A stretch of 64,000 nt of DNA, taken from positions 26,695 to 90,694 of the forward strand of contig DAZE01000021.1 in the NCBI GenBank assembly GCA_002507175.1, in the 5' to 3' direction. The DNA is from Euryarchaeota archaeon UBA558. GTDB lineage: Archaea > Thermoplasmatota > Poseidoniia > Poseidoniales > Thalassarchaeaceae. How positions within the stretch are numbered: the stretch's first letter is position 1; each line of letters opens with the position of its first letter. Positions 19,214 to 40,408 of this stretch are shown here, piece by piece. Made by a program: the position numbers and the translations under genes. The notes under the pieces were generated by a model. That model had not been told where the DNA came from. It was given only the letters and a program-made list of their open reading frames with translations, and did no database searches.

Positions 19214-19290
19214 GGACCCGTAGCTCAGTTGGTTAGAGCGCCCGGCTCATAACCGGGTGGTCATCGGTTCAAATCCGGTCGGGTCCACCA
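19214..19290 (+). tRNA. tRNA with CAT anticodon (elongator Met, or Ile2 if C34 is modified); CCA encoded
   Basis: Manual cloverleaf fold. The acceptor stem pairs GGACCCG with CGGGTCC. The D-loop is AGCTCAGTTGGTTAGAGC. The anticodon stem CCCGG/CCGGG carries the loop CTCATAA. The T-arm is GGTTCAAATCC. Discriminator A is followed by CCA. It lacks the initiator features A1:U72 and G29-31. Confidence 0.9.
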
Positions 19291-20352: not shown

Positions 20353-20418
20353 ATGACCATCTGTGTGTCCAAAGCGGCGACTGCTTCATAACCGGCCCAT
20401 CATCGTGGGGGTACCAAC

Positions 20419-25378: not shown

Positions 25379-25483
25379 TTTTAGAGGTGCAATCACGTAT
25401 CGCTGATTGACACTGCAACCGTCCCGCTTAAATGGAGAGGCAAGGTGGCCGCGATGCTGGACAGCCTCGGCTGTACTGGGTGA

Positions 25484-28400
25484 ATGAAAATGATAGACAA
25501 AAACGGCAACACCGATGTGGCCCAATTGAGAGGCATACTCGGCGGCCCAATAATGCTGGCAGCCGCCCTGTTTGTGTTCTTGATAGCTGCACAGGTCTCG
25601 GGACTGAATGGATGGACAGATGAAATAGGCCTCCTTGCTCTTCCTGCCGTGGCCGCCCTAGGCGCGGCTCTCGGGAGGATCAGCTCGGAGCACCCCTCTG
25701 CGAGCAACCTAAACAGTGCCATAGCCCCGAGCGCTTTTGTCCTGATCTCGATAATAACATCCTTCTTCGCCCCCGCTGCGATCTGCATGACCTTCCTTAT
25801 TGCCTCCCTCATCACACACCTTTTGGTGTCAAAGGGTCGTCCAGTGGAGGCCAACTTCCTCGTTGGGGGTTTGATTGGAATACAGTTTGCAATGATCTTT
25901 GCCTTGACCTCTGAGATACCAGACGACTCGCAAACAAATGCAACCCGTGCATACCTGGGGGCCAGATTCTCGGCCATGATGGCTGTCATGTTGATGGGCT
26001 CGCTATATGTTGCACTAATATTGTCAAAGACGATAGACAGGGCAAGTGAGAAGGGACTTCTCTCGGAACTTCCCTTCGACGTGGCCAGCAAGTCCACCCA
26101 CATCGCTGGTGGCGCTACCATGTCCTCACTCATGATACCCTTGATTTGGTTGTCTTCCATTGACGATCCCCAAATATACGAAGACGGAGCCTTCCTCGGC
26201 CCCTTCTGGGGGCTGTTTTCAGCAGCAATTGTACTGATCGTCGCGATGTTTAGGTCCGAGAGGTGGAACGTCTTGGCAGCGGTATTCTCGCTCAACTGGA
26301 TAATTTACACCCTCGGAAGACTGAATGATATAGGCGTTTCAGGTTTCCCAAATGCCTTGACGGAAGACGGATCGTATCCAATGATCCTGTGGCTCCTCAT
26401 CACATTCTGGTCTAATGTCGGTGTCATATTACTGGCATCCAGAGGTCATTTGGGAGCCATGGCTCCCCTCAGGGAACCATCTCCCTTGAGGAAATGGTGG
26501 CAAAGACATAGCTACGTCATTCTGGTGGGTATGGCCCTTGCGGCCGGATTCATCGTGAGAGTGGTTTGGAACGTGATTCCTGCCATGAACGCATCAGTAA
26601 TAGGAGAGTGGGACATGTCAGGCGGATCTGATCCGTGGTACATGAAGCGGATCATAGACTATGTCGCATACGAAAGGGCGCATTTCGTTTTTGATGCGGA
26701 CCGCAATTACCCCGTGGGAGGATTGAACCCTCGGCCGCCACTATTCTCCTGGTCACTTGCCCTTGGCGGTATTTTCCTTTCCTGGATTGCCGACATGCCC
26801 TTGAGTGAAGCAGTTTGGTGGTCAGTGGAAGCTCAACCTGCCGTTTGGGGCGCATTGATTGTACTCCCTGTAGCAGCAACGGCCAAGAGGTTCCATTCCC
26901 CACTGGCGGGAATTGCCGCTGCTTGGCTCATCGCATTCATGCCAGGCCATATCACACACTCTACATTCGGCCTCGCAGACCACGATTCATTTGCCATGTT
27001 CTTCCTAACACTTGGCTTCTACTGGTGGGTCAGGTCAATGATGGGCATCAAACAAGAGAGGCTCTTCTCGAGAACGTCTTGGAATCCACTGTACATCCTC
27101 GCAGGAATCAGGCTAATGTGGCGCAATAATCGCATAATCATGATACACTCGACATTGGCAGGAGTTTCTTTTGCAATTGCCGGTCTTGCATGGAAAGGCT
27201 ACGTCTATGCCCCGGGAATCCTCTTCCTTGGGTATTCAGGCATCGTTTTCCTGAACCTATTCAGAGGTCGGGATGCCTTACCTATCACCGCAACAATGCT
27301 TCAGATGCTGTTAGCTGCAATCCTAATTCCGTTGCCCTTCTACATTTGGCCAGGGATGAACCTACTGACGAACCCAAGTGGCATGGCTCCGCTACTTTAC
27401 ATGCTGGGATTCACAGTCGGCCTAGGCTACGTTATTTCTGCCTCCCGGGACAAGCCATGGCTCATGGTCTTCACGACCACAGCAATTTTGTCCCTATCTG
27501 TACTGGGGGGTCTGTTCATCCTTCAGACACTTGACTTGTACGCTGGATGGGACATATTGGTCACTGGTGGGTTCTACTTCTCCAAAAACAAGGTTTTCTC
27601 AACAATAGGTGAAGCCCAGGCCCCCGACAGAGGAATCTTGTTTGCCTCATTCGGCCCCATAGTCACTATTGCCGCCATCGGATACGGCCTCATGTTGATA
27701 TGGAGGGGGGGAAGGAAGGAGAATCCAGCCTCATTCACGCTTGGAACATGGATCGTGGTTGCATCTTACATGTCATGGACTGCAGGTCGCTTCATATTCA
27801 ATGCAGGACCTCCAATGGCCGTAGTTGGCGGCGTAGGCCTGACCGCAATGTGGGCGTATGCGAACCCTACAGAATTTGTGAAACTCTGGAAGAAAACCGG
27901 TGTCGGATCACCAAGGGCCAGATTCAACAGCACTTTCTCTGCGAGCAGGTCCAGACCAGGGGTTCCAGCGGCTTTGATGGTCCTCCTAATCGTATTTTCA
28001 CAACACGCCACCTACGGTATCGATTCAGGAATACCCAGGGGAGATTCATCAGCGGGAGATGTTGATCAAGCAATTCAAGGGATTATGCCCGACGTCCTCC
28101 GATACGAAGTTCTAGGTTTTTCTGTATTGAATTCCAACCAATATTCTCCAGACGAGCGGTGCTCCAGTGGCTGCTGGTATCTGGGAACTTTCGGCCCCGG
28201 GTTCAACGGGGGAGGATGGAACATGGCATATGAGTGGCTATCTGAGCAGGACTCAGAATCAACTTTTACCGAACGACCAGCTTTCCTCTCTTGGTGGGAT
28301 TATGGGTTCCAAGCCTTGTCTCATGGACAACACCCCACCGTCGCCGACAATTTCCAAACCGGGATACCCATATCAGGAAACATCCTGCTTAGTTCAGGCC

Positions 28401-31400
28401 AGGAGGATGTACTTTCCCTGATGGCAATGAACGCATTAAGAATGGGCGGTGTCTCAGATCCCGACAATAGGGCCGTTCTAGAACAATACTTTGAGGAGAA
28501 CCAGATCCGGGAGTTGGAACGAATTCACAGTATGTCCTCTGAAGACGTTGAGGCCCGTGCGCTTGCCTTGATTCATGAGGATGATGAGGTACAACTAGTC
28601 AAGGGAGCATTCCTGGCGAAATCTGGTTTGCCATCTAAGTCTGGCTGGTACGTCATTGATGGAGGGGAGATTGTTCAAGACCGCTTTGACGACCTCGGTG
28701 GGGCGATGAAGCTTTTCAACACAACTAGATCATCATCAAGCTACTTCTCAGAGAGCCCCACCCACTATATAATCGGTGGCTATAGATACACAGCAGACCT
28801 CATAGAAGACTACAACGACTTATCCACGGGGATCCACAGGGAAAATGCCAAATTAGCAGTTGGCAGAGCATTCATAACTCATGTTTTGGATCTTGATCAA
28901 ATCGTAGGCCTTGTCTCTGATCTAAGTGAGATACAACATGATGTACAAACGTTTGAAGGAAGACTAGGGGAAACGGCCCAAAGGAACACTGACGTCAGAT
29001 ATTTCGCAATCGATGACAGACTTTACCCATTGGGCGGATTGTTCTATGAGGGCTATAACTATCATGGTGGCCAAACCACAGGTATTTTCTACGCTCCAAC
29101 TACACTGGCGGGCCTTGATCCTGAAGACTACATCTCCAGCAGTTATCTCACCAGAAGGGGGGATGGCCCCATAATCCCACGAACAGCTGGCGAATATGAA
29201 CAGGAATATCTGGATGACATAGTCCGACAACAATCAGGCGCTATAACAGACCAGAGCCAGATAATTAGCCTTGAAGACATCGATTACATCCAGCAACCTG
29301 AATTTTTCGAAACATTCCTGGCCCGTACATACGTTGGTTATGGCACGACATCTCTAGGATTGGATCCGGATAATACTGGTCAACCCGGGCCCACATGGGC
29401 AAAATCCGGAACGCCTACAACGCCCCTTAGGAACGCTTACGCTCTCCCTGGCGCGATGATGAATCACTTCGTTCTCGCAAATTATCATGACGATGGGTCT
29501 GATTACGTGGATTCAGACTCCGATGGTACCCCGGACATATACAATTGGAGCAACCCGCGCGAAGATCCAAGTGGCTACTACAACGCAATAGGAACAGCTA
29601 ACTCCAATGTCAAGATACTCAAGTATTACAGTGGAGCTACGCTCAACGGGCAAGTGACTTTAGAAACCGGTGAACCTGTTCCCAATGCAAAGATTCTGAT
29701 CGAGAGGGACGCCTTCAGCTATGAAGAAGGTACTGACACAGACCCGAGGACTTACTGGATACCCATCGGCTCAGAAACAACAGACGATGAAGGTCACTTT
29801 TCTTCCACTATTCCCTCTGGGAAGATACGGATTAGTGCCTTCTATGGAGCAGTGGATGAATCAGGAGCAAGAGCCCAAATAGAATCTGGCGCGTTTGACA
29901 TGCTTTCCGATATAACCAGAGAACAGCAAGAGGGGGAAGATCGCGTTATCAACCCCATTTCAGCCATTTTGGGTGGAGTAGCTGGAACCACATACCTCGG
30001 AGCCGAGGTTTTAGTGGTATCAGGGGAGGAAGGGCACAGCAATGGGGCCTCAGTACTGACAGTCGACGTCAGTGTACCTGCAGTCGCATCGACGGGGCAG
30101 GTCCAATGGACTGGTGACGAGTCGTTTATCGGCGACCCTGTAAAGAATGCAACGGTAATTCTTACACCATCAGACCCAGATGCCACCCATCATGGATATG
30201 CAGTTTCCACATCCTCAGGCTCAATAGAGGGCGAGGGCCTCTACTTCACAGGCGAGGGAAGCGCGATCTTCGATGGCTCAGGCCAATTTGACTCATCGAG
30301 CCCGGCCAAGGCAGAGGAATTCACAGGAAGGCTGAGTCAGACAATAAGGAACAACCAATCGGTGATCGGTACCGGAACTTTTGTCGGAAATGGAATACTA
30401 ACAGGCACACTCGCTGATGGTTCCGTGCCATCAGCCTGTGATGCCAACGACACCTTGCCGGACAATCTGGAAGTCTGCACGTCTCAGAACGGAGAGATAG
30501 TGGTCTCTGGCTCAGTCAATGCAACGGGAAGATTCGTATCAGCAGGCCAATCGGAGTTCATTCGAGACTACGAGAATGCGTCTTTCACCGCCGCAGGCAG
30601 ATTCATTGTAGACGAGGGCAACTCCGGAACCATAACGGGGAATGGAGTATTCCAAGGGGACGGTGTATTTAGTGGCCTGATGGTCAGGGAGGGCACATTC
30701 CACATCTCTGATGCCATACCTGGGGAATATAGCGTCCGGATCGTGATGAATACCGGCCAAGAAATTGAGGTTGATGAGAAATTCTCAATCCTCAGAACCC
30801 CCTCAGCAGAAACAAGGCTCGTACAAGTGGAGGGCCTCTCTGTTAACGCCCTATTGACGAAGGAGGATGGATCCCTACCCACGGGTAATGTGATACTCAC
30901 CGACACGGAATTGCAAGGTTATACCGCGACACAACCCTGTTCTGATGGACTAACATCCCCATGCTCAGTACCCATTGGGGAAGGCGGAACTATCTCAATC
31001 GGGCCAATACCATCCAGATCACACACGATATCCTATGACTCTGATTTAGATGGCTTCTACGATCTGGTGGCAAGTGTGTTGCCAGAGGATGCTACTTCAG
31101 GATCCATAGAACTGGATCTCACGATCCCATTGACTGCGGACCTTGAAATCAGTCTTTTGTCTGAGTCTGGTGCAACTGTTCCCGACCTAGACCTGACGGT
31201 CAGAAGTGCTTCAGGACCTGGGATCTTCGACATGAACTACGACTCCGAAACGGAGACCTACAAAGCGGAGCTAGTTCCAGGTGAATACCAACTTAACTAC
31301 ACACAGGGAGACTCCCAGATATGGGAGTTGATCACCCTCGATGAGGATCTGTCCATGACCGCCCAGTTCAGGACGAGCTCACTTCTCTCTGGAACTGTTT

Positions 31401-34400
31401 TCACATCAGACGATGACGGTGACCCCGAAGCGGACGACTTCGTCCAATTTGCCGAAGTTGTGGCCAGATGGTCTGGCTTTGAGATATCTACAGTCGCAGA
31501 TGATGAGGGCAATTTCGAGTTCACGCTTCCAGTGGGGGAGAGTGTCACACTCACATCTACCGTCGGACTTGGCAATCTTGTCGATGGTTTGGTAGTGTTC
31601 ACATCCGAGGAAAACGACCACATCAACCTAGTCACAAGAAAAGGAGTTGTCTACGAGGGCATAGTTTCAGTGAATCGAGGCAACTACCTGTACGACAACT
31701 CCATATTGGGCTGGGAGCCACTTACAGTATTAGCAACCAACGAATCGTCTGAAGTCACTTGGACATCTGAGGTAACCGAAAATGGTAACTTCGAGATAGC
31801 CCTCCCAATAGGGGAATGGGAGATTTCATTGCTGGACAGTGAGTTTGAACACGCCACAGTAGCAATGGAACCAGACGCTACGATCGAATTAACCATATTC
31901 CCAGAGAACAGCACACTGAATTTATTTGCATTCATCGACTCATCCAGAGACGGTAATGTCGCCAACGGCACAGGAGTCATAGCTGATTTCAGAGTTGTAC
32001 CCTTGGATCAGAGTGGAATTCAAGAGAATTTCACTACTTCAGCCACTGGAACCGCCAGTGTGCAACTCGAGCCAGGGAATTATCTGATCGAAACCAGCAT
32101 ACTCAACCCAGATCAGACCCTTCACGGGACTAGGATCCTTACAGGGTCCACCAACATTCAGATTCCACTGAAGGGAACCATTCTGCAAAGAGATATTGGA
32201 TTCGACCCAGAGGGCGTCGTAAATATTACATTCACCGATCAACTACTCGCCCCCATTGCTGATTTAGAGATTAAATTCAGAAATGTTGACAGAGAACCTG
32301 TAATCGTCACTTCACTCACAACAGATGACGATGGAAACATCCTCGCATTATTGCCTGAGGGTAGAACGATAATCGAGATTGATGGCTTTGAGCCTGGCGA
32401 CCAGACTGTATTGGGTGCAAGATATGCAATTGATGTGATCGCAGGTGATCAATCATCGCCGATATCGATCGAATTAACGGAGATGGCAACTTTGAATCTT
32501 ACAATTTTGGACTCTGGAACATCCGATGGAATCCCGGATCAGAAAATTATCCTACAATCTCTAGATGGTTTGGGAACAATCAATATGCCCCCGACAAATG
32601 AAACAGGATTCACATCGACATTACTCGTACCCGGTGATTGGAGTGTAAGCCATGACGAGGAGACCAGTGGAGTTAGAGTCCTGATTCAAGAAACTCACAT
32701 AGACCAAATTCTAGCAGGTGAATATCGAGATATTCTACTCGACGCTCAAAAGGAAGTCATTCTATCTGGTAAGGTTTTCTGGGATTTTGACAAAGACGAT
32801 CAGGCTGATGTCGCGGAGGGCGTTTCCAATGCTACTGTTACAATTGACGACGGTCAAACCACTATTCAACTGGAAACCGATGAAACAGGATCATACTCCT
32901 CATTGGTCCCGGCGAATGCCTCTCTAAGCGTCACTGCCTCCAAGGACGGATTTACCACCACGGAGGAGAACTCTCTAATCAATGGAGAGCCAATTGATCT
33001 CGACATCGAGCTAACTGCAGGTACAGTTTCTGCCTCAGGCACTGTGACCTACCTAGGCCAATCGATAGATCCTCTGTGGTCCGATGATGTCGAAATAATC
33101 CTGGTGCCCAGAGAGGGCTTTGCTATGCCTCAAGTAACCGCAGAGAAGAATGGAGACGGCGAATGGGACGGTACTTGGTCTGTTGACCTAGAACCCGGGA
33201 GATATGTGCTTCAAGTGCGTGACACCACCAGAAACTTAGTGGCCTTCTCCCAAATATTCGCTGATCTAGTGAACGGTGGACAAGCGGACGTGGATCTAGT
33301 CCCCGGAGGATGGCTCCTAATGAATGGCTCATGGCTTGACTATGAGGGAAGCCTGCACTCAATCTCATCAGAGGACATGGATTTAGAAGGATCAGACATT
33401 CTGAATGATGAACTAACACTTCTGATGGAGTCTGGGCCGTCACTAGACTGGAGACTCGCGGTACCCGATGACGGGGAACTTAGAATCCTCTTACCTTCAG
33501 GACCAGTTACGATTTCCGGGGACTTCGACGTAGCTCAACAGGACAGGACAATGTCATATGAGGCAGGTCAGTCCATCAGTGTCCCATCCTCAACGATTTT
33601 AGACGCATTTGAGACTGCACCATTTGACCTGAGGTTCAACAGAATATCAAACAGCGATATCTCAGTAGCCTTGGTTTCCACTTCATCCGCCACCGTCGAC
33701 GATGACGGCATTCTGTACGCCAATAGCGACGGAGAAGGCGGCTACGAACCCATGCTCGTAGAGATCAAAGTTGACTATGAGGGTCATGAGACATCCGATG
33801 TTTTCAATTTGAGGGCCACAGTCCCTGGCACTGATGGAGCTGATTGGACTGTTCTGTTTGATAATGGATCTGGGGAATATTCAGACGCACCAACCCTTTC
33901 GATGTCCATCGAAGACGATCAAAAGACTGTCCAAGTCCAAATAACACCCCCCAACTCTACGGTGGCACGTCATTTCTCAAATGGAAGAGCTGTGACAATC
34001 CAGGTATTCTCGGACAACGGCGTTAACGAAGACGTTGAAGTGAAAGTCAACGTCCCAAAAATAACCGGTTGGAGTCTATCTGAGGCCCCCGAAGACGTTT
34101 ATGGTGTCAGACCCGGTTCTCAGGAGACTGTCCAACTCATCTTCCAAAACGATGGCAACTCAGATGAGGTATACTCAGTCTCATTCGATGACGGTGCATT
34201 GCCTCCAGGTTGGACAAGAACTGGAGCCCAATCCGTGACTGTTGGGGCATTTGAGAGTCAAGCGTTCTCGGTCATCATAGGTGCCCCGGAAAACGCCACT
34301 GACGAACCATACACACTCACCATGTTCGTAATAGGCGATGACCAAACGGAATACGAGCCCGTAGCAATTGACGTGTCCGCCCAATATGCGGTACTGTCCA

Positions 34401-34858
34401 TTGACAGGGATAGCGTGTCATGGTTGGGTGGTGGCAAGGATCCTGTTTACGGCTCAATACAGACAGTAGTTCTGACGATTGAAAATCAAGGTCTTGTGGG
34501 GGCAGAGGAAGTGATAGTGAAAGCTGAGCACCAGACATCCGCCTTATCCGAACCCTCTGGCATCAACGCTACCGCCATTCTTACAGTACCAGCGGGAACG
34601 GAGAGCACGGCTTATTTAGATCTCAATTTCAGCACCCTCAGTCAGGGCGATGCTTGGATCGTGTTCTCCATAGAGTCAGTAGATGGGAAAGAGTCCTCAG
34701 AGGAGCCTTACACAAAGAAGTACAATCTACAGTCTCCGAGCGTCGAAGAGGCAGGGGATGCGACCCAGGTATTGATGATAGTACTCATTATCATACTCGG
34801 GGGCTTGTTGATCGTCCTTACAAGAAGGCCAGGCAGGAAACCTAACGCCCCCTTCTGA
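25484..34858 (+). CDS. aglB: giant (3,124 aa) AglB/STT3-type oligosaccharyltransferase fusion protein
   Basis: STT3 catalytic motifs occur in the correct order: EL1 SDPWYMKR (D383), D499-H-D501 (GLADHDSF), EL5 TIGE (aa 707-710) and WWDYG (aa 937-941, nt 28292-28306). About 340 aa with extra TM helices precede them. After about aa 1385 come at least 9 CarboxypepD_reg-like modules, then CARDB-like modules and a terminal TM VLMIVLIIILGGLLIVLTRRPGRK. Confidence 0.85.
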   Translation: MKMIDKNGNTDVAQLRGILGGPIMLAAALFVFLIAAQVSGLNGWTDEIGLLALPAVAALGAALGRISSEHPSASNLNSAIAPSAFVLISIITSFFAPAAICMTFLIASLITHLLVSKGRPVEANFLVGGLIGIQFAMIFALTSEIPDDSQTNATRAYLGARFSAMMAVMLMGSLYVALILSKTIDRASEKGLLSELPFDVASKSTHIAGGATMSSLMIPLIWLSSIDDPQIYEDGAFLGPFWGLFSAAIVLIVAMFRSERWNVLAAVFSLNWIIYTLGRLNDIGVSGFPNALTEDGSYPMILWLLITFWSNVGVILLASRGHLGAMAPLREPSPLRKWWQRHSYVILVGMALAAGFIVRVVWNVIPAMNASVIGEWDMSGGSDPWYMKRIIDYVAYERAHFVFDADRNYPVGGLNPRPPLFSWSLALGGIFLSWIADMPLSEAVWWSVEAQPAVWGALIVLPVAATAKRFHSPLAGIAAAWLIAFMPGHITHSTFGLADHDSFAMFFLTLGFYWWVRSMMGIKQERLFSRTSWNPLYILAGIRLMWRNNRIIMIHSTLAGVSFAIAGLAWKGYVYAPGILFLGYSGIVFLNLFRGRDALPITATMLQMLLAAILIPLPFYIWPGMNLLTNPSGMAPLLYMLGFTVGLGYVISASRDKPWLMVFTTTAILSLSVLGGLFILQTLDLYAGWDILVTGGFYFSKNKVFSTIGEAQAPDRGILFASFGPIVTIAAIGYGLMLIWRGGRKENPASFTLGTWIVVASYMSWTAGRFIFNAGPPMAVVGGVGLTAMWAYANPTEFVKLWKKTGVGSPRARFNSTFSASRSRPGVPAALMVLLIVFSQHATYGIDSGIPRGDSSAGDVDQAIQGIMPDVLRYEVLGFSVLNSNQYSPDERCSSGCWYLGTFGPGFNGGGWNMAYEWLSEQDSESTFTERPAFLSWWDYGFQALSHGQHPTVADNFQTGIPISGNILLSSGQEDVLSLMAMNALRMGGVSDPDNRAVLEQYFEENQIRELERIHSMSSEDVEARALALIHEDDEVQLVKGAFLAKSGLPSKSGWYVIDGGEIVQDRFDDLGGAMKLFNTTRSSSSYFSESPTHYIIGGYRYTADLIEDYNDLSTGIHRENAKLAVGRAFITHVLDLDQIVGLVSDLSEIQHDVQTFEGRLGETAQRNTDVRYFAIDDRLYPLGGLFYEGYNYHGGQTTGIFYAPTTLAGLDPEDYISSSYLTRRGDGPIIPRTAGEYEQEYLDDIVRQQSGAITDQSQIISLEDIDYIQQPEFFETFLARTYVGYGTTSLGLDPDNTGQPGPTWAKSGTPTTPLRNAYALPGAMMNHFVLANYHDDGSDYVDSDSDGTPDIYNWSNPREDPSGYYNAIGTANSNVKILKYYSGATLNGQVTLETGEPVPNAKILIERDAFSYEEGTDTDPRTYWIPIGSETTDDEGHFSSTIPSGKIRISAFYGAVDESGARAQIESGAFDMLSDITREQQEGEDRVINPISAILGGVAGTTYLGAEVLVVSGEEGHSNGASVLTVDVSVPAVASTGQVQWTGDESFIGDPVKNATVILTPSDPDATHHGYAVSTSSGSIEGEGLYFTGEGSAIFDGSGQFDSSSPAKAEEFTGRLSQTIRNNQSVIGTGTFVGNGILTGTLADGSVPSACDANDTLPDNLEVCTSQNGEIVVSGSVNATGRFVSAGQSEFIRDYENASFTAAGRFIVDEGNSGTITGNGVFQGDGVFSGLMVREGTFHISDAIPGEYSVRIVMNTGQEIEVDEKFSILRTPSAETRLVQVEGLSVNALLTKEDGSLPTGNVILTDTELQGYTATQPCSDGLTSPCSVPIGEGGTISIGPIPSRSHTISYDSDLDGFYDLVASVLPEDATSGSIELDLTIPLTADLEISLLSESGATVPDLDLTVRSASGPGIFDMNYDSETETYKAELVPGEYQLNYTQGDSQIWELITLDEDLSMTAQFRTSSLLSGTVFTSDDDGDPEADDFVQFAEVVARWSGFEISTVADDEGNFEFTLPVGESVTLTSTVGLGNLVDGLVVFTSEENDHINLVTRKGVVYEGIVSVNRGNYLYDNSILGWEPLTVLATNESSEVTWTSEVTENGNFEIALPIGEWEISLLDSEFEHATVAMEPDATIELTIFPENSTLNLFAFIDSSRDGNVANGTGVIADFRVVPLDQSGIQENFTTSATGTASVQLEPGNYLIETSILNPDQTLHGTRILTGSTNIQIPLKGTILQRDIGFDPEGVVNITFTDQLLAPIADLEIKFRNVDREPVIVTSLTTDDDGNILALLPEGRTIIEIDGFEPGDQTVLGARYAIDVIAGDQSSPISIELTEMATLNLTILDSGTSDGIPDQKIILQSLDGLGTINMPPTNETGFTSTLLVPGDWSVSHDEETSGVRVLIQETHIDQILAGEYRDILLDAQKEVILSGKVFWDFDKDDQADVAEGVSNATVTIDDGQTTIQLETDETGSYSSLVPANASLSVTASKDGFTTTEENSLINGEPIDLDIELTAGTVSASGTVTYLGQSIDPLWSDDVEIILVPREGFAMPQVTAEKNGDGEWDGTWSVDLEPGRYVLQVRDTTRNLVAFSQIFADLVNGGQADVDLVPGGWLLMNGSWLDYEGSLHSISSEDMDLEGSDILNDELTLLMESGPSLDWRLAVPDDGELRILLPSGPVTISGDFDVAQQDRTMSYEAGQSISVPSSTILDAFETAPFDLRFNRISNSDISVALVSTSSATVDDDGILYANSDGEGGYEPMLVEIKVDYEGHETSDVFNLRATVPGTDGADWTVLFDNGSGEYSDAPTLSMSIEDDQKTVQVQITPPNSTVARHFSNGRAVTIQVFSDNGVNEDVEVKVNVPKITGWSLSEAPEDVYGVRPGSQETVQLIFQNDGNSDEVYSVSFDDGALPPGWTRTGAQSVTVGAFESQAFSVIIGAPENATDEPYTLTMFVIGDDQTEYEPVAIDVSAQYAVLSIDRDSVSWLGGGKDPVYGSIQTVVLTIENQGLVGAEEVIVKAEHQTSALSEPSGINATAILTVPAGTESTAYLDLNFSTLSQGDAWIVFSIESVDGKESSEEPYTKKYNLQSPSVEEAGDATQVLMIVLIIILGGLLIVLTRRPGRKPNAPF
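29634..33225 (+). repeat. protein-level tandem array of CarboxypepD_reg-like beta-sandwich modules inside the giant aglB ORF
   Basis: The signature '(T/S)(D/N)xxGx(F/Y)xxxLPxGx(Y/W)x(I/L)' recurs. Examples are TDDEGHFSSTIPSGKIRI, ADDEGNFEFTLPVGESV, TENGNFEIALPIGEWEI, ATGTASVQLEPGNYLI, TDDDGNILALLPEGRTI, TNETGFTSTLLVPGDWSV, TDETGSYSSLVPANASL and GTWSVDLEPGRYVL. The DNA copies are divergent, so this is not a nucleotide repeat. Confidence 0.6.
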
Positions 34859-34878: not shown

Positions 34879-36111
34879 ATGCCCAAGGACGGCATCGAGT
34901 TAATGCCCGAGCCTGAGGACAGGGCTATCCTAACCGCGGTTGACAAGGGGGCCGTGGGATACACGGGGGAAGATTACGGCCTTTCTGACAAAGAAGCGAG
35001 AGACCTGAGGCGGCCATTGTATGGCATGTCACCATTCGTATGGCCCTATGGAGCAGTTGGAGGAGCTGCCAGCATAGTCGTGATGATGCTTTTGTGGCCG
35101 ATGATTCAGCCACTAATCACGCCATACCTTCCAGCTTCCGAATGGGCCTATGATTCATCTGGTGTACGGCTCCTCAGCGAGGAAGGTCTCGATGGTAGTG
35201 GGATCAAAGTCTGCGTAGTCGATACTGGTATAGACCCAGCACATCCTGATTTTACAAACATGAATTTAGTTGGATTCAGGGACTTTTATGCCTTTAATCA
35301 TGAGGAGGTTAGGGATGTAAGCCAATCCCACCATGGAACTTCCATGGCAGGGCTACTCATTGCGAATGGCTCTGGACCCTTGAAAGGAATGGCTCCGAAG
35401 GTGGCACTCAGCGTGGCCGTAGGATTGGGGCCTGAGGGAACCACTGGAAACAGCGTCAGGGTCGCTGATGCAATTCAATGGTGTAGGGTTTCTCAGAGAT
35501 CGGATATAATCAGCCTATCGCTAGGGGGGCCATTCGAAGCCTCATCCCAACTAGCCTCTAGGTCTGTCTCAGGTGCGGTTCAAGATGCCTTGGACAATGG
35601 GATCTTTGTCGTAGCGGCGGCGGGAAATGCGGGTCCGAACAACATTGATGTCTCCACACCCGCAAATGTTGAGGGCGTCATAAGTGTCGGTGCATATGAT
35701 CGGTTTCTCACGCCCTGGTCAAACAGTTCGATCGGTTCATACCAAGATCCTTACAAGGAATTGGATAGAGTCTGGCCAAATCAGAAACCCGAGATACTCG
35801 CCCCTGGCTACTATATTCTCTCCACAGTTTCCAGTCAGAAATCCCCTCCTTATGCATATTCTACAGGTACAAGCGATGCAGCAATCTTCGTCACAGCGAC
35901 GTTGGCCTTGATATTACAGGATCTTACTGAAAAGGGTCTCACAGACCTTACGGTTGGGGGGGATAATCGTATATTTCATGTCAAGAAGGCCCTCGCAGAG
36001 AGTGCCAAACCAGTAGATAACCAGATCGGACACGACACTCGGTCGGGATATGGCATTCTGGATGCCGTGGCATGGCGTGACGCAGTGGAAGCCTCTGCTG
36101 ACAATTGGTAG
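34879..36111 (+). CDS. membrane-anchored subtilisin-like serine protease (peptidase S8)
   Basis: The catalytic triad contexts are VCVVDTGID (Asp), SHHGTSMAGL (His) and STGTSDAAIFVTA (Ser). An N-terminal TM (AASIVVMMLLWPMIQPLI) precedes the catalytic domain. Confidence 0.85.
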   Translation: MPKDGIELMPEPEDRAILTAVDKGAVGYTGEDYGLSDKEARDLRRPLYGMSPFVWPYGAVGGAASIVVMMLLWPMIQPLITPYLPASEWAYDSSGVRLLSEEGLDGSGIKVCVVDTGIDPAHPDFTNMNLVGFRDFYAFNHEEVRDVSQSHHGTSMAGLLIANGSGPLKGMAPKVALSVAVGLGPEGTTGNSVRVADAIQWCRVSQRSDIISLSLGGPFEASSQLASRSVSGAVQDALDNGIFVVAAAGNAGPNNIDVSTPANVEGVISVGAYDRFLTPWSNSSIGSYQDPYKELDRVWPNQKPEILAPGYYILSTVSSQKSPPYAYSTGTSDAAIFVTATLALILQDLTEKGLTDLTVGGDNRIFHVKKALAESAKPVDNQIGHDTRSGYGILDAVAWRDAVEASADNW

Positions 36112-36178
36112 CACCCATATTCCGCCTAGGGTTATATCTATTGACGGCTCCAGTGCTATCATGATCGACCGGCCCGTG

Positions 36179-39100
36179 ATGAAGAGCAAAGCATTGGTAC
36201 TCATTCTGATACTCTCGACAATGGTCGCCCTGGTAGCACCGGCTTCTTCGGTGTCTGCCCAGAATGCTACCAGTTCAGGGTACATTGACTCCATCGAGAC
36301 CTGGTCTGGTTCACACGCTGTCAGTGGAGACATAATCATATCACCGGGTGCTAAGCTGATTATCGAACCTTCAACTCAAATCACCTTCTCAAATGGCACA
36401 TCTTTGGAGGCACGGGGGAACCTATGCATTGGCGCTGCATCCTGCGGCGCCTCTCAAGATGCAACCTCCACCAGTCGGATAACAATGACATGGCTTGAGC
36501 CGTCGAACGCCTCTGCAAATGGGGATTGTAGAGGTATGACCTTTGGAACATCCACGCTTACGATAGATGACCCCTCGTGCGGGGAAGGAATCGTCATTCG
36601 AAGCACAATAGACCTCTCAGAGACTGCCCTCCGTCAACTGGACATCGACTCAGCATGGGGCGTTCCGTTCCCAGTCCCAACCGTTAACCAATTTCGATAT
36701 GGTGCTTTGGTATTGCAAGGAGCATCCCCCGAATTAGTTGAATTGGAGTTTACTGATACGAACACATCTAGCGTACTCGCAACAGAATTGGCTCAACCTA
36801 GATTCATCGGAGGTCTTTACACTGTTGGAAATGATGGGCAGAGCGGTGTAACAGGGAACGCCGTACAAATATATGGAGGAGGTACAGGAAGCGTCCCTGT
36901 ACTTTTTGAGAATTCAGATTTTGTTTCAACTGAAAGGGGATGTCGAAATCAGGATAACGGGCGATCTGCTGTGTGGGTTGAAGAGTCATTCGCAGAATTC
37001 GTCAATATCAATGTCATCAGTGGTGATTTTGGATTGAGTTTCAGATCTTCTGCTGGGAAGGTTTCAGAATCATCTTTGAGTGTTAACTGCAATGGTGTGG
37101 ACATCAATGGTATGATCTCGGTAGGAACCAAAGAATATCCTACCAATGTTTCAAACAATGTCATCACCACAGTTGAGGGCACCCCGATAACCGCTTATGC
37201 AGGGTCATTAGCCGAGATCCATAACAACACCTTGAGCGGAGCATCGGGAGGATCTGGCATCGCAGTTCAATCAAGTCGCGCGACAATTCACGGTAACAAC
37301 ATCGGCCCCATAGATGGTTGGAACGGACTATGGCTCATTGGTTCCTTCGATGTCGATGCCCAGAATAACACGATAAGCGACATAGCTAGGGAACCCGTAA
37401 TCGCGGGGGACTACTGGGCGGGGGACAACCCTGACGTCAGGAGGCTTTACTTTGCTAATAATCAGGTTTCAACCCCAGGGACCGGCAGCTGCCAAAGCAA
37501 CACTCACTGGGGTGGGGAGTTTACATGCCCAGTAGTCATGGTCCATAGGGCTGGGGCAACACTGGTGGACAACGTTTTCACTGCGGGTGGTTCTGCGGAT
37601 GGAATCAGGGCAACTGGAGCCTTACTAAATGTCCAAAGGAATACTTGGAACATAAACGCAGTTGGAGCTGTAATACAGAATTATGACACCGGGGCTGCCG
37701 GAGCCCAACAATATGGGTCATTAGCGTTCTTCACCGAAAATCAATGGAATGGAGTCACAAGCACCTACGATGTGACGAAATCTTCAGTCACAGTACAATC
37801 AGAAACCATTCCGAATGCCGCAGATGGCGAAGTACCGGTCAGTCTCGCTTGGGATGACCAAGAGGCATGGCCAGGTGTAGTCGACAATGATAATGACGGG
37901 ATTCCAGATGGTGATTGGGACACAAATATCGTGCCACACCAGACGACAAGCTGCGCTATATGCCCAGATTATACTCCTCGTGATTTCCCCTTGGCGCTAA
38001 GCATGGACAACAATTCCACAGTCTTCACATTTTCCAACGTATTGAATTTGGATCTTTCGAAAATCCAAATTGCGACGCAGCCAACGTTTTACTCCGTTCA
38101 AGTCAAGCGGGCAGAGATGGTTAGGTTCCAAGCGATGGCTAAAGGTTCGGCGGTCCCTGGGGCGAACATCCTGATCGAAGACGGGGTTGGCAACGATCTT
38201 TACTCCCTCGAGACCCTTGATGATGGTCGGACACCATGGATCGCGCTTCCATCAAATTCACACTTAGACTTCAGAGGGCTTCAGGGTGGTGACAACCCAG
38301 ATGGCTACGCAGATGATGAATACGAAGACTCCTGCTCAGATGGGATAGACAACGATGGCGACCTTTTCTACGATACGCAAGATGACTCATGCGACTATTC
38401 AATTGGCTCTCGAGAAATGTCGAAATACTTTGTCACTGGGTACAAATTTGGATCAGGATACTATCATTATGACTTCCTGCTTCAGGAGGCAACATACGAG
38501 GGAACTGTGGTTCTAGAGAACGATGCACCTTCAATTAGCGTCGATGAGTCGAGCGATACCTCATTCAAGAGAACAGTCACAATCACAGGTTCAGCATGGG
38601 ACGGTGAATGGATAGGAGTCTACCCGTCCGCAGAGGAATCCATGTGGGCGCAGAAGGGATATGTTCACAGGGTTGAGGTCAAGGACCCATTCACTGGCTC
38701 TTGGTATCACGCAGGAATCGCTACCGATACCTCTGGAATGGCTGCGGGAGAAGTCACAGGGACAAATCATCCGTTCAGAACATGGGAATACTCTTTGGAC
38801 ATGTCTACGTATCCTGAGGACGACTATGTCTTTGAAATACGGTCCTTCGACGGACTCGACTACAGTGAAATCATAACGAAGACTGTTAAACTCAACACAC
38901 AACCCCCCTTGGTATCCATTTCAGAGCCAGCAGATTCAACAACCCACAGGAATGATAACAAGAAAATAACGTTCACTGGGACAGCAAACGATGACTATGG
39001 ATGCCCGACTAACTGCGGTGCCGACATACAAAACGTATTTTTTGTTATTGAGGGATCGGAATATTACAGCGATACACCAGCTGACGCCTTATGGTCTGGG

Positions 39101-40408
39101 AATACATGGACCTACGAATGGAGCTACGCCGCCCTCCCCAGAATCTCGGATGATTACACTTTCACCATATGGGCATCTGACTCAGATTTTTGCGTGGGAA
39201 TCGTGGATGAATGCAACCCAGTGGTAATGACTTTAACAATCGACAATGAAAATCGAAACCCACTGATACAACTGTCCCAACCTGTGGACGGAACATACGT
39301 GGAGGCATCAGATAACACAGTGATTTCGGGAGTCGCCCAAGACCCTGATGGCCTGGTAAACAGGATAGACATCGAAATTCGAGACCCCATTGATGGCATC
39401 ATCATTGATACAATCACCCTCACGGGTTCAGAAATTGATGGTAATTATTGGTCCACCCAATGGGACTCCGGGAATTTACAACATGATCGTCCATACACTA
39501 TCTATGCACGTAGTTTTGATGGCATCGGATACTCACAATGGGACCAGACCGAGTTCATCGCAGACAACCCACCGAACAAAGACAATAATCGGCCAGTATT
39601 CGACAACACAGGTTGGGAACGAGAGTTCACGCTGTATTGCGATGCTGAGAACCTAGACCTTCTGGATCGGTGCACATTTGCAACAATCGACCTAAATGAC
39701 CATTTTTCAGACCCTGATGTTGAACAGGACATTATCCTGGCAGTTGTCGATGACCAACATGCCATTGGCATTAGAATAGACTCGTCAGGCATCGCTACCT
39801 ACGATCCTGATGTGATGGCCTTCTACACTACGGACATGTCTGAATGGACTATGGAAAACGTCGTGTTTATCGCACAAGACGTCTTTGGGTCAAAGGTCCA
39901 GTCAGATCCTGTCGATTTCATCGTGATCCCAACAATATTTTCTGTCAATGCTCCGGATCAAACCTCAATAGGATCTGGTGATAATGGAATATTATTCGAC
40001 GGAACTGGCATTCCAGGTAGGGCTGTCACTGCCTACATTGATTCAAATCCCGCTAATTCGACGGTAGTCAGAGATGATAGCACGTGGGAACTTCTCATAC
40101 CATCAAATAGGATCATCGGTGCCGTGACCCCCCAATTCACCATGGGGGTTGGCACACCAATCGATGGCGTGACGATATCGGATGGCTCAGGTGACGATGA
40201 TGGACTCCCACTGGGATTAATTGGAGCCCTAGTCTTGTTGATGGTAATTCTAGTCGCTACTGGTGCAAGATTTATCGAGTTTGGTGAAGAAGAGGGAATC
40301 CAAGAAGACGATCAGACTGAAGATCAGAGGTATGTCAAAGACGCAGACAATCCTGGTTGGCTGTGGGATATAGAGGCTGGAGAATGGGTTCCTGAGGGCG
40401 AAAGTTGA
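36179..40408 (+). CDS. giant surface protein: right-handed parallel beta-helix (PbH1/NosD-like) plus Ig-like domains, C-terminal TM anchor
   Basis: The ATG at 36179 gives the signal MKSKALVLILILSTMVALVAPASSVSAQ, while the track start at 36050 overlaps the protease gene. Beta-helix repeats recur (NNVITT..G.PI; IHNNTLSGASGGSGIAV; IHGNNIG; NNTISD; ANNQVS). Also present are an acidic DNDNDGIPDGDWD motif, CSDGIDNDGDLFYDTQDDSCD, and Ig-like modules (ITFTGTANDDYG, ISGVAQDPDG). The TM is LGLIGALVLLMVILVATGA, followed by an acidic Trp-rich tail. Confidence 0.8.
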   Translation: MKSKALVLILILSTMVALVAPASSVSAQNATSSGYIDSIETWSGSHAVSGDIIISPGAKLIIEPSTQITFSNGTSLEARGNLCIGAASCGASQDATSTSRITMTWLEPSNASANGDCRGMTFGTSTLTIDDPSCGEGIVIRSTIDLSETALRQLDIDSAWGVPFPVPTVNQFRYGALVLQGASPELVELEFTDTNTSSVLATELAQPRFIGGLYTVGNDGQSGVTGNAVQIYGGGTGSVPVLFENSDFVSTERGCRNQDNGRSAVWVEESFAEFVNINVISGDFGLSFRSSAGKVSESSLSVNCNGVDINGMISVGTKEYPTNVSNNVITTVEGTPITAYAGSLAEIHNNTLSGASGGSGIAVQSSRATIHGNNIGPIDGWNGLWLIGSFDVDAQNNTISDIAREPVIAGDYWAGDNPDVRRLYFANNQVSTPGTGSCQSNTHWGGEFTCPVVMVHRAGATLVDNVFTAGGSADGIRATGALLNVQRNTWNINAVGAVIQNYDTGAAGAQQYGSLAFFTENQWNGVTSTYDVTKSSVTVQSETIPNAADGEVPVSLAWDDQEAWPGVVDNDNDGIPDGDWDTNIVPHQTTSCAICPDYTPRDFPLALSMDNNSTVFTFSNVLNLDLSKIQIATQPTFYSVQVKRAEMVRFQAMAKGSAVPGANILIEDGVGNDLYSLETLDDGRTPWIALPSNSHLDFRGLQGGDNPDGYADDEYEDSCSDGIDNDGDLFYDTQDDSCDYSIGSREMSKYFVTGYKFGSGYYHYDFLLQEATYEGTVVLENDAPSISVDESSDTSFKRTVTITGSAWDGEWIGVYPSAEESMWAQKGYVHRVEVKDPFTGSWYHAGIATDTSGMAAGEVTGTNHPFRTWEYSLDMSTYPEDDYVFEIRSFDGLDYSEIITKTVKLNTQPPLVSISEPADSTTHRNDNKKITFTGTANDDYGCPTNCGADIQNVFFVIEGSEYYSDTPADALWSGNTWTYEWSYAALPRISDDYTFTIWASDSDFCVGIVDECNPVVMTLTIDNENRNPLIQLSQPVDGTYVEASDNTVISGVAQDPDGLVNRIDIEIRDPIDGIIIDTITLTGSEIDGNYWSTQWDSGNLQHDRPYTIYARSFDGIGYSQWDQTEFIADNPPNKDNNRPVFDNTGWEREFTLYCDAENLDLLDRCTFATIDLNDHFSDPDVEQDIILAVVDDQHAIGIRIDSSGIATYDPDVMAFYTTDMSEWTMENVVFIAQDVFGSKVQSDPVDFIVIPTIFSVNAPDQTSIGSGDNGILFDGTGIPGRAVTAYIDSNPANSTVVRDDSTWELLIPSNRIIGAVTPQFTMGVGTPIDGVTISDGSGDDDGLPLGLIGALVLLMVILVATGARFIEFGEEEGIQEDDQTEDQRYVKDADNPGWLWDIEAGEWVPEGES

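What the first reader, a model, noticed from the sequence alone, without database searches (positions are those of the whole stretch)
25484..34858. 3,124-aa AglB/STT3 oligosaccharyltransferase fused to an extra membrane module and a ~1,800-aa surface-domain array
One uninterrupted ORF carries the full ordered STT3 catalytic motif set. These are the EL1 acidic motif SDPWYMKR (D383), D499-H-D501, EL5 TIGE at aa 707-710, and WWDYG at aa 937-941. Characterised archaeal AglB enzymes are roughly 600-1,000 aa. This core is preceded by about 340 aa containing roughly 8 additional predicted TM helices. After the normal external C-terminal domain it continues into at least 9 CarboxypepD_reg-like beta-sandwich modules and CARDB-like modules, and ends in a final TM with an RRPGRK tail. 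That topology is self-consistent: the AglB C-terminal domain is extracytoplasmic and the tail obeys the positive-inside rule. The N-glycosylation enzyme would therefore itself be a giant, doubly anchored cell-surface structure. It might physically couple glycosylation to envelope or adhesin architecture, or tether the enzyme at a fixed distance from the membrane.
Basis: partly seen in the sequence, partly recalled or inferred. Interest (0 to 1): 0.8.

Follow-up and report, generated by a model that had tools for sequence, protein, structure and literature searches.

The report
Giant membrane-anchored archaeal N-glycosylation enzyme
This is a real 3,124-residue version of the archaeal N-glycosylation enzyme AglB, carrying an extra membrane block and a long rod of beta-sandwich domains tied back to the membrane; this giant form is the normal one in Marine Group II archaea, so the gene is typical of its lineage, though I found no published description of the architecture.

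Summary
ORF 25484-34858 (+) is uninterrupted and encodes 3,124 aa. The ORF is not an assembly artefact. The identical protein occurs on 6 independently assembled contigs. Forty-two complete orthologues from Poseidoniales (Marine Group II archaea) species genomes are colinear, nearly gap-free and about 3,090-3,250 aa long. dN/dS is 0.04-0.11 in every segment.

The roughly 340-aa N-terminal block models as 10 TM segments with positive-inside topology. Among 1.84 billion representative proteins it is found only in this family. The C-terminal part is one CarboxypepD_reg domain, a conserved Gly-rich long-strand beta region, about 10-11 tandem modules of about 89 aa, CARDB-like domains, a TM helix and a basic tail ending in Pro-Phe.

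The claim of uniqueness fails. The giant form is the lineage norm. A 2,150-2,200-aa AglB-array-TM version, without the N-module, is standard in Methanomassiliicoccales, including cultured M. luminyensis.

Best reading: a functional oligosaccharyltransferase built into a fixed-length, NOMO-like surface strut or scaffold. Enzyme identity is well supported; the strut role is inferred. No paper describing this architecture was found.

The parts
25484..34858 (+). Complete giant aglB ORF (3,124 aa plus stop)
   Evidence: The identical product is on 6 independent contigs. 42 colinear orthologues.
25484..26509 (+). N-terminal membrane module, aa 1-342. I parse 10 TM segments, N-in and C-in. It is specific to this family.
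   Evidence: AF2 helices. Positive-inside count 15 versus 2. Conserved residues include E259, W261, W272 and G284. A profile search of 1.84e9 proteins finds it only in 3,146-3,228-aa proteins and in fragments. dN/dS 0.096.
26510..27973 (+). STT3/AglB transmembrane catalytic core, aa 343-830
   Evidence: Pfam STT3 49.2 bits. Profile hit to A. fulgidus AglB 3WAJ, E 2e-13. Foldseek top hits are AfAglB, STT3A/B, yeast Stt3 and PglB.
26627..26650 (+). EL1 motif SDPWYMKR, containing D383 (first DXD-type acidic residue)
   Evidence: GGSDPWY aligns with GGNDPWY of AfAglB, whose D47 binds the metal (PMC8342417). Invariant in 29 and 35 homologues.
26978..26986 (+). EL2 motif D499-H500-D501 (second DXD)
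   Evidence: Aligns with D161-H-H163 of AfAglB and with the DNE region of human STT3A. Invariant.
27602..27613 (+). EL5 TIXE motif, T707-I-G-E710
   Evidence: Position. T707 and E710 are invariant. Role of TIXE from PMC8342417.
27974..29623 (+). External C-terminal globular domain of AglB, aa 831-1380, containing WWDYG (nt 28292-28306). It ends in a variable acidic linker at about aa 1335-1375.
   Evidence: WWDYG aligns to AfAglB, to STT3A and to the AglB-S C-terminal domains 3VGP/3VU0. High conservation over aa 1100-1350, and a 20% gap fraction at 1351-1400. Colinear with M. luminyensis AglB.
29636..29848 (+). First CarboxypepD_reg beta-sandwich, aa 1385-1455
   Evidence: Pfam 33.2 bits on the segment. 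AF2 strands. Conserved and colinear with the first sandwich of the Methanomassiliicoccales protein.
29849..30688 (+). Linker plus conserved Gly-rich region, aa 1456-1735. It contains very long predicted beta strands and an invariant Cys pair (C1652, C1665). It has no Pfam or NCBIfam family.
   Evidence: Invariant Gly and Cys columns. AF2 strands of up to 42 residues at pLDDT about 90. No family hit. Homologue search returns only fragments of the same family.
30689..33523 (+). Tandem array of about 10-11 beta-sandwich modules of about 89 aa, aa 1736-2680 (CarboxypepD_reg / transthyretin-like / Cna-B-like)
   Evidence: hhalign self-hits at offsets 98, 177, 266, 353 and 451. Pfam CarboxypepD_reg and SpaA hits. 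AF2 all-beta. Foldseek matches BaTIE, pilins, Cna-B and SdrD. Profile hit to NOMO2 9C7V, E 3e-10.
33524..34753 (+). C-terminal extracellular domains, aa 2681-3090, including the NPCBM_assoc/CARDB-like domain at aa 2876-2947 (nt 34109-34324)
   Evidence: NPCBM_assoc 31.4 bits on the segment against a cut-off of 24.4. Weak choice_anch_T hit.
34763..34819 (+). C-terminal transmembrane helix, aa 3094-3112
   Evidence: Kyte-Doolittle 19-residue mean of 2.88. Present in all complete orthologues.
34820..34855 (+). Basic cytoplasmic tail TRRPGRKPNAPF, ending in conserved Pro-Phe-COOH
   Evidence: 42 of 42 complete orthologues end in PF. No other ORF in the window does. No known C-terminal sorting model matches.
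34879..36111 (+). Adjacent subtilase S8 gene (410 aa, N-terminal TM anchor), 21 nt after the aglB stop. The neighbour is conserved.
   Evidence: Pfam Peptidase_S8 135.7 bits. TM at aa ~58-80. Found downstream of aglB in 59 of 80 loci.
36050..40408 (+). Conserved downstream surface protein (1,452 aa; beta-helix, Big_7, signal peptide, C-terminal TM)
   Evidence: Syntenic in 58 of 80 loci.

Best explanation
The ORF is the AglB oligosaccharyltransferase of a Marine Group II (Poseidoniales, Thalassarchaeaceae-type) archaeon, in the giant form that is standard for that order.

Shown: a canonical STT3 core with all metal-binding and sequon-binding motifs conserved. Shown or modelled: the core is preceded by a family-exclusive 10-TM module. 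It is followed, outside the cell, by the normal AglB globular domain. Then come one CarboxypepD_reg domain, a conserved Gly-rich long-strand beta region, about 10-11 tandem beta-sandwich modules and CARDB-like domains. The chain ends in a TM helix with a basic cytoplasmic tail ending in Pro-Phe.

Inferred: the enzyme transfers lipid-linked glycans to Asn-X-Ser/Thr sequons of exported proteins, as other AglBs do. Its roughly 2,150-aa ectodomain, anchored at both ends, forms a fixed-length rod or hairpin. My estimate is a contour of about 50-60 nm, so about 25-30 nm if folded back. I propose that this rod acts as a structural strut or scaffold of the cell envelope and holds the glycosylation site inside that layer. 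This is comparable to the way the bead-on-a-string protein NOMO sets the width of the ER lumen. The array carries sequons and may itself be glycosylated.
For: Enzyme identity:
- Pfam STT3 is above its cut-off.
- The profile hits AfAglB at E 2e-13, with GGSDPWY, DHD and WWDYG aligned to the catalytic residues.
- The AF2 model's best Foldseek hits are AfAglB, STT3A/B, Stt3 and PglB.
- D383, D499, H500, D501, T707 and E710 are invariant in 29-35 homologues.

Real single gene:
- The identical protein is on 6 contigs.
- 42 colinear orthologues, including single-cell genomes and long-read MAGs.
- dN/dS is 0.035-0.109 in all seven segments.
- aglB transcripts were reported for an MGIIb MAG in situ, log2FC 2.05 (PMC9723583 supplement).

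Fixed-length rod rather than a variable adhesin:
- Orthologue lengths are 3,086-3,245 aa counted from the first ATG, and the alignment is nearly gap-free through the array.
- The Methanomassiliicoccales counterpart is equally tight: 108 proteins at 2,100-2,227 aa, 106 of them with a C-terminal TM.
- The modules are the stalk type. Foldseek gives BaTIE, Cna-B, SdrD and pilins. The profile hits a multi-domain stretch of NOMO2.
- NOMO is a 27-nm rod with a C-terminal TM, and lengthening it widens the ER lumen (PMC8327139).

Topology: positive-inside counts and the basic tail.

Sequons: 23 after WWDYG against 15.7 +/- 3.6 in shuffles; 33-59 in orthologues.
Against: - No experiment shows activity, surface exposure, or that the protein stays in one piece.
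- AF2 confidence is low (pLDDT 31-40) around WWDYG, aa 881-962.
- The DK/MI motif could not be located with confidence.
- Whether these genomes carry a second, ordinary AglB was not tested.
- The strut role rests on analogy and on conservation of length.
- The resemblance to NOMO is at the level of a widespread domain class. Pfam NOMO models score below their cut-offs on this protein.
- No glycosylation-pathway genes lie nearby.
- The envelope structure of Marine Group II cells is not known to me. No paper found in the literature searches addresses it.
Confidence: 0.6

Rival explanations
1. Polyprotein or precursor. The giant chain is cut after export, for instance in the variable acidic linker at about aa 1335-1375, possibly by the membrane-anchored S8 subtilase encoded 21 nt downstream. 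The products would be an ordinary-sized AglB and a separate C-terminally anchored stalk or S-layer-like surface protein. The fusion would then serve co-expression and co-localisation only.
For: The S8 gene immediately follows aglB and is syntenic in 59 of 80 loci, down to about 40% identity. It has an N-terminal TM anchor, so its protease domain would face outside. The only gappy, poorly conserved stretch between enzyme and array is aa 1351-1400. The array has its own C-terminal anchor.
Against: No cleavage motif was identified. Much of the surrounding gene order is conserved in these genomes, so adjacency alone is weak evidence. In the one Methanomassiliicoccales locus examined (L081), a small CARDB gene follows aglB rather than an S8 gene. 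The first beta-sandwich is tightly conserved and colinear with the enzyme domain across two orders, which suggests an integrated unit.
Confidence: 0.2
2. Adhesin or substrate-capture arm. The array binds particles, polysaccharides, other cells or nascent glycoprotein substrates, as tandem-Ig stalks of bacterial adhesins do. The enzyme part would be incidental to that role.
For: The closest folds are stalks of Gram-positive adhesins and pilins. CARDB/NPCBM_assoc-type domains lie near the distal end. Neighbouring genes encode large surface proteins.
Against: No recognisable ligand-binding head domain was found. The module number is fixed and the alignment gap-free in 42 species. dN/dS is about 0.1, not diversifying. 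Both ends are membrane-anchored, which is unlike adhesins that project a free tip.
Confidence: 0.12
3. Intermembrane tether. The C-terminal TM sits in a second, outer membrane, so the protein bridges two membranes at a set distance.
For: A review states that double membranes have been reported in M. luminyensis (PMC6098224), whose order carries the shorter AglB-array-TM fusion. Both families are tightly fixed in length. NOMO provides a precedent for a rod that sets membrane spacing.
Against: The basic tail after the last TM fits a cytoplasmic location in the same membrane. I know of no insertion route into an archaeal outer membrane. The envelope of Marine Group II cells has not been imaged, as far as I could find.
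Confidence: 0.06
4. Catalytically dead structural protein, or an assembly or frameshift artefact that joins separate genes.
For: None specific. Several database homologues on long contigs are only 900-1,650 aa.
Against: All catalytic residues are invariant. The short homologues stop abruptly inside conserved domains, for example at WWDYGFQAL, or end in adapter-derived peptide, so they are truncation artefacts. The identical ORF is on 6 contigs. There are 42 colinear orthologues. Purifying selection acts throughout.
Confidence: 0.02

Closest known systems
Archaeal AglB, e.g. Archaeoglobus fulgidus AglB-L (PDB 3WAJ/5GMY/7E9S; chains of about 850-875 residues in the PDB copies)
   Same: The STT3 fold, the EL1 Asp (GGxDPWY), the EL2 D-H-x motif, the EL5 TIXE motif and WWDYG in an external C-terminal globular domain.
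   Different: Our protein is about 3.6 times longer. It has a 10-TM N-terminal module with no detectable relatives outside this family. It also has a roughly 1,750-aa beta array and a second membrane anchor at the C-terminus.
Methanomassiliicoccales AglB-array fusions (e.g. M. luminyensis P0212, 2,173 aa; P0028, 2,164 aa)
   Same: An STT3 core and external domain that are colinear at 31% identity, followed directly by a CarboxypepD_reg domain. Then a long beta-sandwich array, a CARDB/FixG_C-like domain, a C-terminal TM and a basic tail. Length is tightly fixed within the order.
   Different: No N-terminal module: GGSD lies at about aa 70. They are about 1,000 aa shorter. The tail reads KGVFRRRKR instead of ...RRPxAPF. 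The Gly-rich region was not detected there.
Eukaryotic NOMO (BOS complex subunit; PDB 9C7V)
   Same: A string of about 12 transthyretin/CarboxypepD_reg-like sandwiches followed by a single C-terminal TM and a short tail. The family profile aligns over about 400 residues, several domains, at E 3e-10. The same top structural neighbour, BaTIE, is reported for NOMO1 and found here. NOMO works next to the ER translocon, where OST also sits; that last point is from my own knowledge.
   Different: NOMO is a separate protein and is not fused to STT3. Pfam NOMO models score below their cut-offs on this protein (17.8 and 14.4 bits against 27). The similarity may reflect only the common domain class. No nicalin or TMEM147 partners were looked for.
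Stalks of Gram-positive surface proteins (BaTIE, Cna B repeats, SdrD B domains, pilins)
   Same: Tandem Ig-like, prealbumin-like beta sandwiches forming a rod.
   Different: Those are sortase-anchored at one end and carry a binding head. Here both ends are in the membrane and the 'head' is an enzyme.

Membership tests
STT3/AglB/PglB oligosaccharyltransferase (GT-C, Pfam PF02516) | STT3 profile match above the curated cut-off | tested here: met
   PF02516 49.2 bits against 24.5, aa 363-694.
STT3/AglB/PglB oligosaccharyltransferase | Overall fold of the 13-TM core plus the external domain | tested here: met
   AF2 model (pLDDT 71.6, pTM 0.68). The best Foldseek hits are AfAglB (E 8.5e-9), STT3A/B, yeast Stt3 and PglB. 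TM-scores are modest (0.3-0.5) because of the extra parts and low-confidence loops.
STT3/AglB/PglB oligosaccharyltransferase | First DXD-type acidic residue in EL1 | tested here: met
   GGSD383PWY aligns with GGND47PWY of AfAglB. Invariant.
STT3/AglB/PglB oligosaccharyltransferase | Second DXD motif in EL2 | tested here: met
   D499-H-D501 aligns with D161-H-H163 of AfAglB. Invariant.
STT3/AglB/PglB oligosaccharyltransferase | TIXE/SVSE motif in EL5 | tested here: met
   T707-I-G-E710. T707 and E710 are invariant. It was not residue-aligned to a solved structure.
STT3/AglB/PglB oligosaccharyltransferase | WWDYG motif in the external domain | tested here: met
   aa 937-941, aligned to AfAglB, human STT3A and 3VGP/3VU0.
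STT3/AglB/PglB oligosaccharyltransferase | DK or MI motif forming the Ser/Thr pocket | tested here: inconclusive
   A conserved helix HRxNA(K/R)LA at about aa 1117-1134 is a candidate. It does not fit D-x-x-K-x-x-x-M/I, and no residue-level structural alignment was available.
STT3/AglB/PglB oligosaccharyltransferase | DGGK or DNXTZNX[T/S] motif after WWDYG | tested here: inconclusive
   The sequence reads VADNFQTGIP. It has a conserved DN but no double sequon and no DGGK.
STT3/AglB/PglB oligosaccharyltransferase | Oligosaccharyl transfer activity | not testable with these tools
   Needs biochemistry or genetics.
TIGR04154 archaeo_STT3 (archaeosortase A-associated AglB subfamily) | Score at or above the curated cut-off | tested here: not met
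   130.8 bits against a cut-off of 450. No PGF-CTERM-type or other CTERM sorting model matches the C-terminus.
Poseidoniales giant AglB family (defined here) | N-module, STT3 core, Gly-rich region, about 11 sandwiches, TM and a ...PF-COOH end, at about 3.1-3.3 kaa, in conserved synteny carS-purD-aglB-S8 | tested here: met
   90% identity over aa 1-3124 to UBA182 (L001). Colinear with 42 orthologues.
NOMO family | Pfam NOMO domain models above their cut-offs | tested here: not met
   NOMO1-like_9th 17.8 bits and NOMO_5th 14.4 bits against 27. The family profile does hit NOMO2 at E 3e-10. In M. luminyensis, NOMO_5th sums to 40.5 bits but no single stretch passes.
NOMO family | Rod of tandem sandwiches plus a single C-terminal TM and a short tail | tested here: met
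   This is a resemblance in architecture only.
NOMO family | Association with nicalin and TMEM147 (BOS complex) | not tested
   Partners were not searched for.
CarboxypepD_reg domain (PF13620) | Profile match above the cut-off | tested here: met
   87.8 bits for the whole protein. Segment hits of 33-40 bits at aa ~1386, ~2081 and ~2445.
CARDB / NPCBM_assoc-type domain | Profile match above the cut-off | tested here: met
   NPCBM_assoc scores 31.4 bits against 24.4 when the segment is scanned alone, but 23.5 bits in the whole-protein scan. Pfam CARDB itself did not hit.

The most novel reading that the evidence does not exclude
Across Thermoplasmatota (Poseidoniales and Methanomassiliicoccales), the N-glycosylation enzyme is physically fused to a NOMO-like molecular ruler. 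That ruler would bridge the cytoplasmic membrane to an outer membrane or envelope layer and set its spacing. If so, the archaeal OST would double as the main envelope strut. The pairing of an OST with a NOMO-type rod at a protein-export membrane would then predate, or at least parallel, the eukaryotic ER arrangement.
Probability: 0.1. Interest if true: 0.85.

Novelty: new variant of a known kind. Interest (0 to 1): 0.55.

Why it matters
Marine Group II archaea are reported as the most abundant planktonic archaea in surface oceans (abstract of PMC6461757). They are uncultured, and I found no description of their cell envelope.

This work shows that their only detected AglB is a conserved protein of about 3,100-3,250 aa carrying a fixed-length rod and a second anchor. 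That gives a concrete, testable candidate for an envelope-organising component. It also extends the known size range of AglB about three-fold.

The shorter version of the same fusion occurs in cultured Methanomassiliicoccus luminyensis, so the idea can be tested at the bench. For annotation, the work shows that the many 'short' or 'partial' STT3 entries from these lineages are truncations.

Tried and rejected
- Literature. Searches were AglB + Marine Group II (0 papers); oligosaccharyltransferase/oligosaccharyl + Poseidoniales/MGII (only a transcript list and an unrelated review); AglB + Thermoplasmatota; AglB + STT3 + longest; Methanomassiliicoccus + AglB. None describes giant AglB. The library holds open-access papers only, so absence is not proof.
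- Identity of the N-module. There is no Pfam or NCBIfam hit. Foldseek gives nothing beyond the STT3 core. The HMM search of 1.84e9 representatives returns only this family. An apparent stand-alone N-module, P0035 (359 aa), is a 1.25-kb contig whose ORF ends in adapter-derived peptide CLLYTSPSPRD*. It is therefore an artefact.
- Gly-rich region. It has no family hit. A homologue search returned only fragments of the same protein family.
- C-terminal sorting signal. No PGF-CTERM-like model matches. No other ORF in the window ends in PF.
- Glycosylation gene cluster. The neighbours are carS, purD, a protease, surface proteins, a STAND-type ATPase and housekeeping genes. There are no glycosyltransferases or flippases.
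- Bacterial-type promoter and terminator scan. It is uninformative for an archaeon.
- 'Short' homologues on long contigs as evidence for normal-sized AglB in the lineage. I rejected this because they stop inside conserved domains.
I therefore could not measure how the N-module packs against the core, or locate the DK/MI motif.
Full report
**Observation.** The window contains one uninterrupted ORF at 25484-34858 on the + strand, 3,124 codons from an ATG. Pfam STT3 matches aa 363-694 at 49.2 bits against a cut-off of 24.5. The archaeal STT3 model TIGR04154 aligns over aa 349-973 at 130.8 bits, below its subfamily cut-off of 450. CarboxypepD_reg scores 87.8 bits overall, and an NPCBM_assoc (CARDB-like) domain lies at aa 2876-2947. 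The last strong hydrophobic segment is aa 3094-3112, followed by RRPGRKPNAPF.

**Organism and context.** The neighbours include a CDP-archaeol synthase and purD upstream. Downstream are a subtilase, a 1,452-aa beta-helix surface protein and a STAND-type ATPase. The best homologues are labelled Candidatus Thalassarchaeaceae or Poseidoniales, that is Marine Group II archaea. The closest genome locus is UBA182, at 90% identity over residues 1-3124.

**Is the ORF real?**
- The identical 3,124-aa product is called on six contigs from separate assemblies, including a 161-kb TARA scaffold.
- A scan of one genome per GTDB species found 558 relatives. The best 80 are all Poseidoniales. In every locus not cut by a contig end or by masked sequence (N runs), the ORF is about 3.1-3.3 kaa.
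- Forty-two complete orthologues align colinearly with almost no gaps. They include single-cell genomes and long-read MAGs.
- Against the 90%-identical orthologue, dN/dS is 0.096 for the N-module, 0.044 for the STT3 membrane core, 0.035 for the external domain and 0.074-0.109 for the array parts.
- The 900-1,650-aa database homologues on long contigs stop abruptly inside conserved domains or end in adapter-derived peptide. They are truncations, not evidence for a short form.

**Is it an AglB?** A family profile hits A. fulgidus AglB-L (3WAJ) at E 2e-13. GGSDPWY aligns to GGNDPWY, ADHD to NDHH and WWDYG to WWDYG. In AfAglB those positions are D47, D161/H163 and the sequon-binding motif (PMC8342417). 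D383, D499, H500, D501, T707 and E710 are invariant across 29-35 homologues. An AF2 model of aa 1-1200 (pLDDT 71.6, pTM 0.68) finds AfAglB, human STT3A/B, yeast Stt3 and PglB as its top structural matches. The DK/MI and DGGK-type motifs could not be assigned.

**The N-terminal module.**
- AF2 predicts helices through aa 10-319, mostly at pLDDT 75-90.
- A 10-segment topology places 15 K+R in cytoplasmic loops and 2 in external loops. It delivers the chain to the cytoplasmic side before STT3 TM1, as the STT3 fold requires.
- The module is conserved in all Poseidoniales homologues, with invariant or near-invariant residues such as E259, W261, W272 and G284.
- A profile of it, searched against 1.84 billion representative proteins, returns 98 hits. 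Every long one (>3,000 aa) is a 3,146-3,228-aa protein of this family; the rest are shorter pieces (37-1,992 aa), apparently fragments or truncations.
- It has no Pfam, NCBIfam or structural relatives. Its function is unknown. A role as a built-in accessory subunit, or as a docking site for the C-terminal helix, is speculation.

**The C-terminal part.** After the external AglB domain and a variable acidic linker come these parts, in order:
- One CarboxypepD_reg sandwich, aa 1385-1455.
- A short helical stretch.
- A Gly-rich region, aa ~1540-1735, with many invariant glycines and an invariant Cys pair. AF2 models it with high confidence as very long beta strands.
- A tandem array with a period of about 89 aa from about aa 1735 to 2680, that is about 10-11 modules.
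- CARDB-like domains, the TM helix and the tail.

The modelled array (pLDDT 82.2) matches stalk-type tandem Ig proteins: BaTIE, Cna-B, SdrD and pilins. The family profile also aligns over about 400 residues with human NOMO2 at E 3e-10. However, the Pfam NOMO models remain below their cut-offs on this protein.

The ectodomain is acidic, at 14-17% D+E. It carries 23 sequons after WWDYG, against 15.7 +/- 3.6 in shuffles. Orthologues have 33-59. All 42 complete orthologues end in Pro-Phe.

**Beyond this lineage.**
- The most distant hit of the first search, P0028, belongs to a large Methanomassiliicoccales family.
- In that family 108 of 119 retrieved proteins are 2,100-2,227 aa. They have STT3 at the N-terminus (GGSD at about aa 70, WWDYG at about aa 600). 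A CarboxypepD_reg/SdrD_B array follows.
- Of the 108, 106 also have a C-terminal TM and a KGVFRRRKR-type tail.
- The family includes a RefSeq protein of cultured Methanomassiliicoccus luminyensis (2,173 aa).
- The window protein aligns colinearly with that RefSeq protein through the core, the external domain and the first sandwich.

So the AglB-array-anchor fusion is shared by two orders. Poseidoniales add the N-module, the Gly-rich region and about 1,000 residues. Public names are generic ('STT3 domain-containing', 'carboxypeptidase regulatory-like domain-containing', occasionally 'AglB'). I found no paper describing the architecture.

**Mechanism.** What is shown is the anatomy, its conservation and its topology. 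From family knowledge I infer that the core transfers lipid-linked glycans to N-X-S/T sequons outside the membrane.

My best-supported reading of the array is a fixed-length rod or hairpin that is part of the envelope scaffold. Four points support it:
- Length and domain order are tightly conserved in both orders.
- The array is under purifying selection.
- The modules are of the stalk type.
- Both ends are anchored.

NOMO offers a precedent. It is a 27-nm string of Ig-like beads with a C-terminal TM, and its length sets ER lumen width (PMC8327139).

Rival readings:
- Processing into two proteins by the conserved adjacent S8 subtilase.
- An adhesin or capture arm.
- An intermembrane tether. 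A review states that double membranes have been reported in M. luminyensis (PMC6098224).

An MGIIb aglB was among the transcripts enriched in situ (PMC9723583).

**Verdict.** The locus is typical of its lineage rather than exceptional. At the family level it is an undescribed, strongly conserved variant of AglB that deserves experimental attention.

Noticed in passing
window 23359-49694: The gene order carS - purD - aglB - S8 subtilase - 1,452-aa beta-helix surface protein - HTH/AAA/TPR (STAND-like) ATPase - MBL hydrolase - 1,938-aa TSP3-repeat protein is conserved in about 45-60 of 80 Poseidoniales loci, even at 40-55% protein identity. The aglB stop and the S8 start are 21 nt apart, so the two are probably co-transcribed.
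   Followed up: partly
window 34820-34855 (aa 3113-3124): Every complete orthologue (42 of 42) ends in Pro-Phe-COOH after a basic stretch (...RRPxAPF). Two further loci end in Ala-Phe. No known C-terminal sorting model matches, and no other ORF in the window ends this way. This might be a recognition motif for a cytoplasmic partner. The conserved TPR-containing ATPase three genes downstream (after the S8 subtilase and the beta-helix protein) is one untested candidate.
   Followed up: partly
window 30245-30688 (aa ~1588-1735): The most conserved part of the array is not a sandwich repeat. It is a Gly-rich region with an invariant Cys pair (C1652, C1665). AF2 models it confidently as beta strands of up to 42 residues. 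It has no family assignment.
   Followed up: partly
P0002, P0019, P0022, P0010, P0017, P0035 / L085:167-1252: Many database 'STT3' proteins of this lineage are truncated calls. Some end at WWDYGFQAL or in mid-domain on contigs of 0.6-1.1 Mb, which suggests frameshifts. Two end in sequencing-adapter-derived peptides (...LSLIHI, ...CLLYTSPSPRD*).
   Followed up: yes
window 13136-15817 (-): An 893-aa membrane-anchored ORF has a Pfam CD36-family hit (37.3 bits against a cut-off of 26.5, aa 66-123 only). That family is mostly eukaryotic, so the hit is unusual for an archaeon.
   Followed up: no
window 19399-23319: Three ORFs without any Pfam family (317 aa, 409 aa and 559 aa on the minus strand) have signal-peptide-like or TM ends and are conserved upstream of carS in many loci. 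They are probably further envelope proteins.
   Followed up: no
window 25393-26295 (-): A 300-aa antisense ORF overlaps the start of aglB. The + frame is under purifying selection there (dN/dS about 0.1), so the antisense ORF is most likely spurious.
   Followed up: partly
window 19214-19290: A single tRNA-Met (CAT) gene. It is the only Rfam or ARAGORN hit in the 64-kb window.
   Followed up: yes
L081:16516-17250: In the one Methanomassiliicoccales locus examined, a small stand-alone CARDB protein follows aglB. purD and a beta-helix giant of more than 2,000 aa lie nearby, which partly echoes the Poseidoniales neighbourhood.
   Followed up: no
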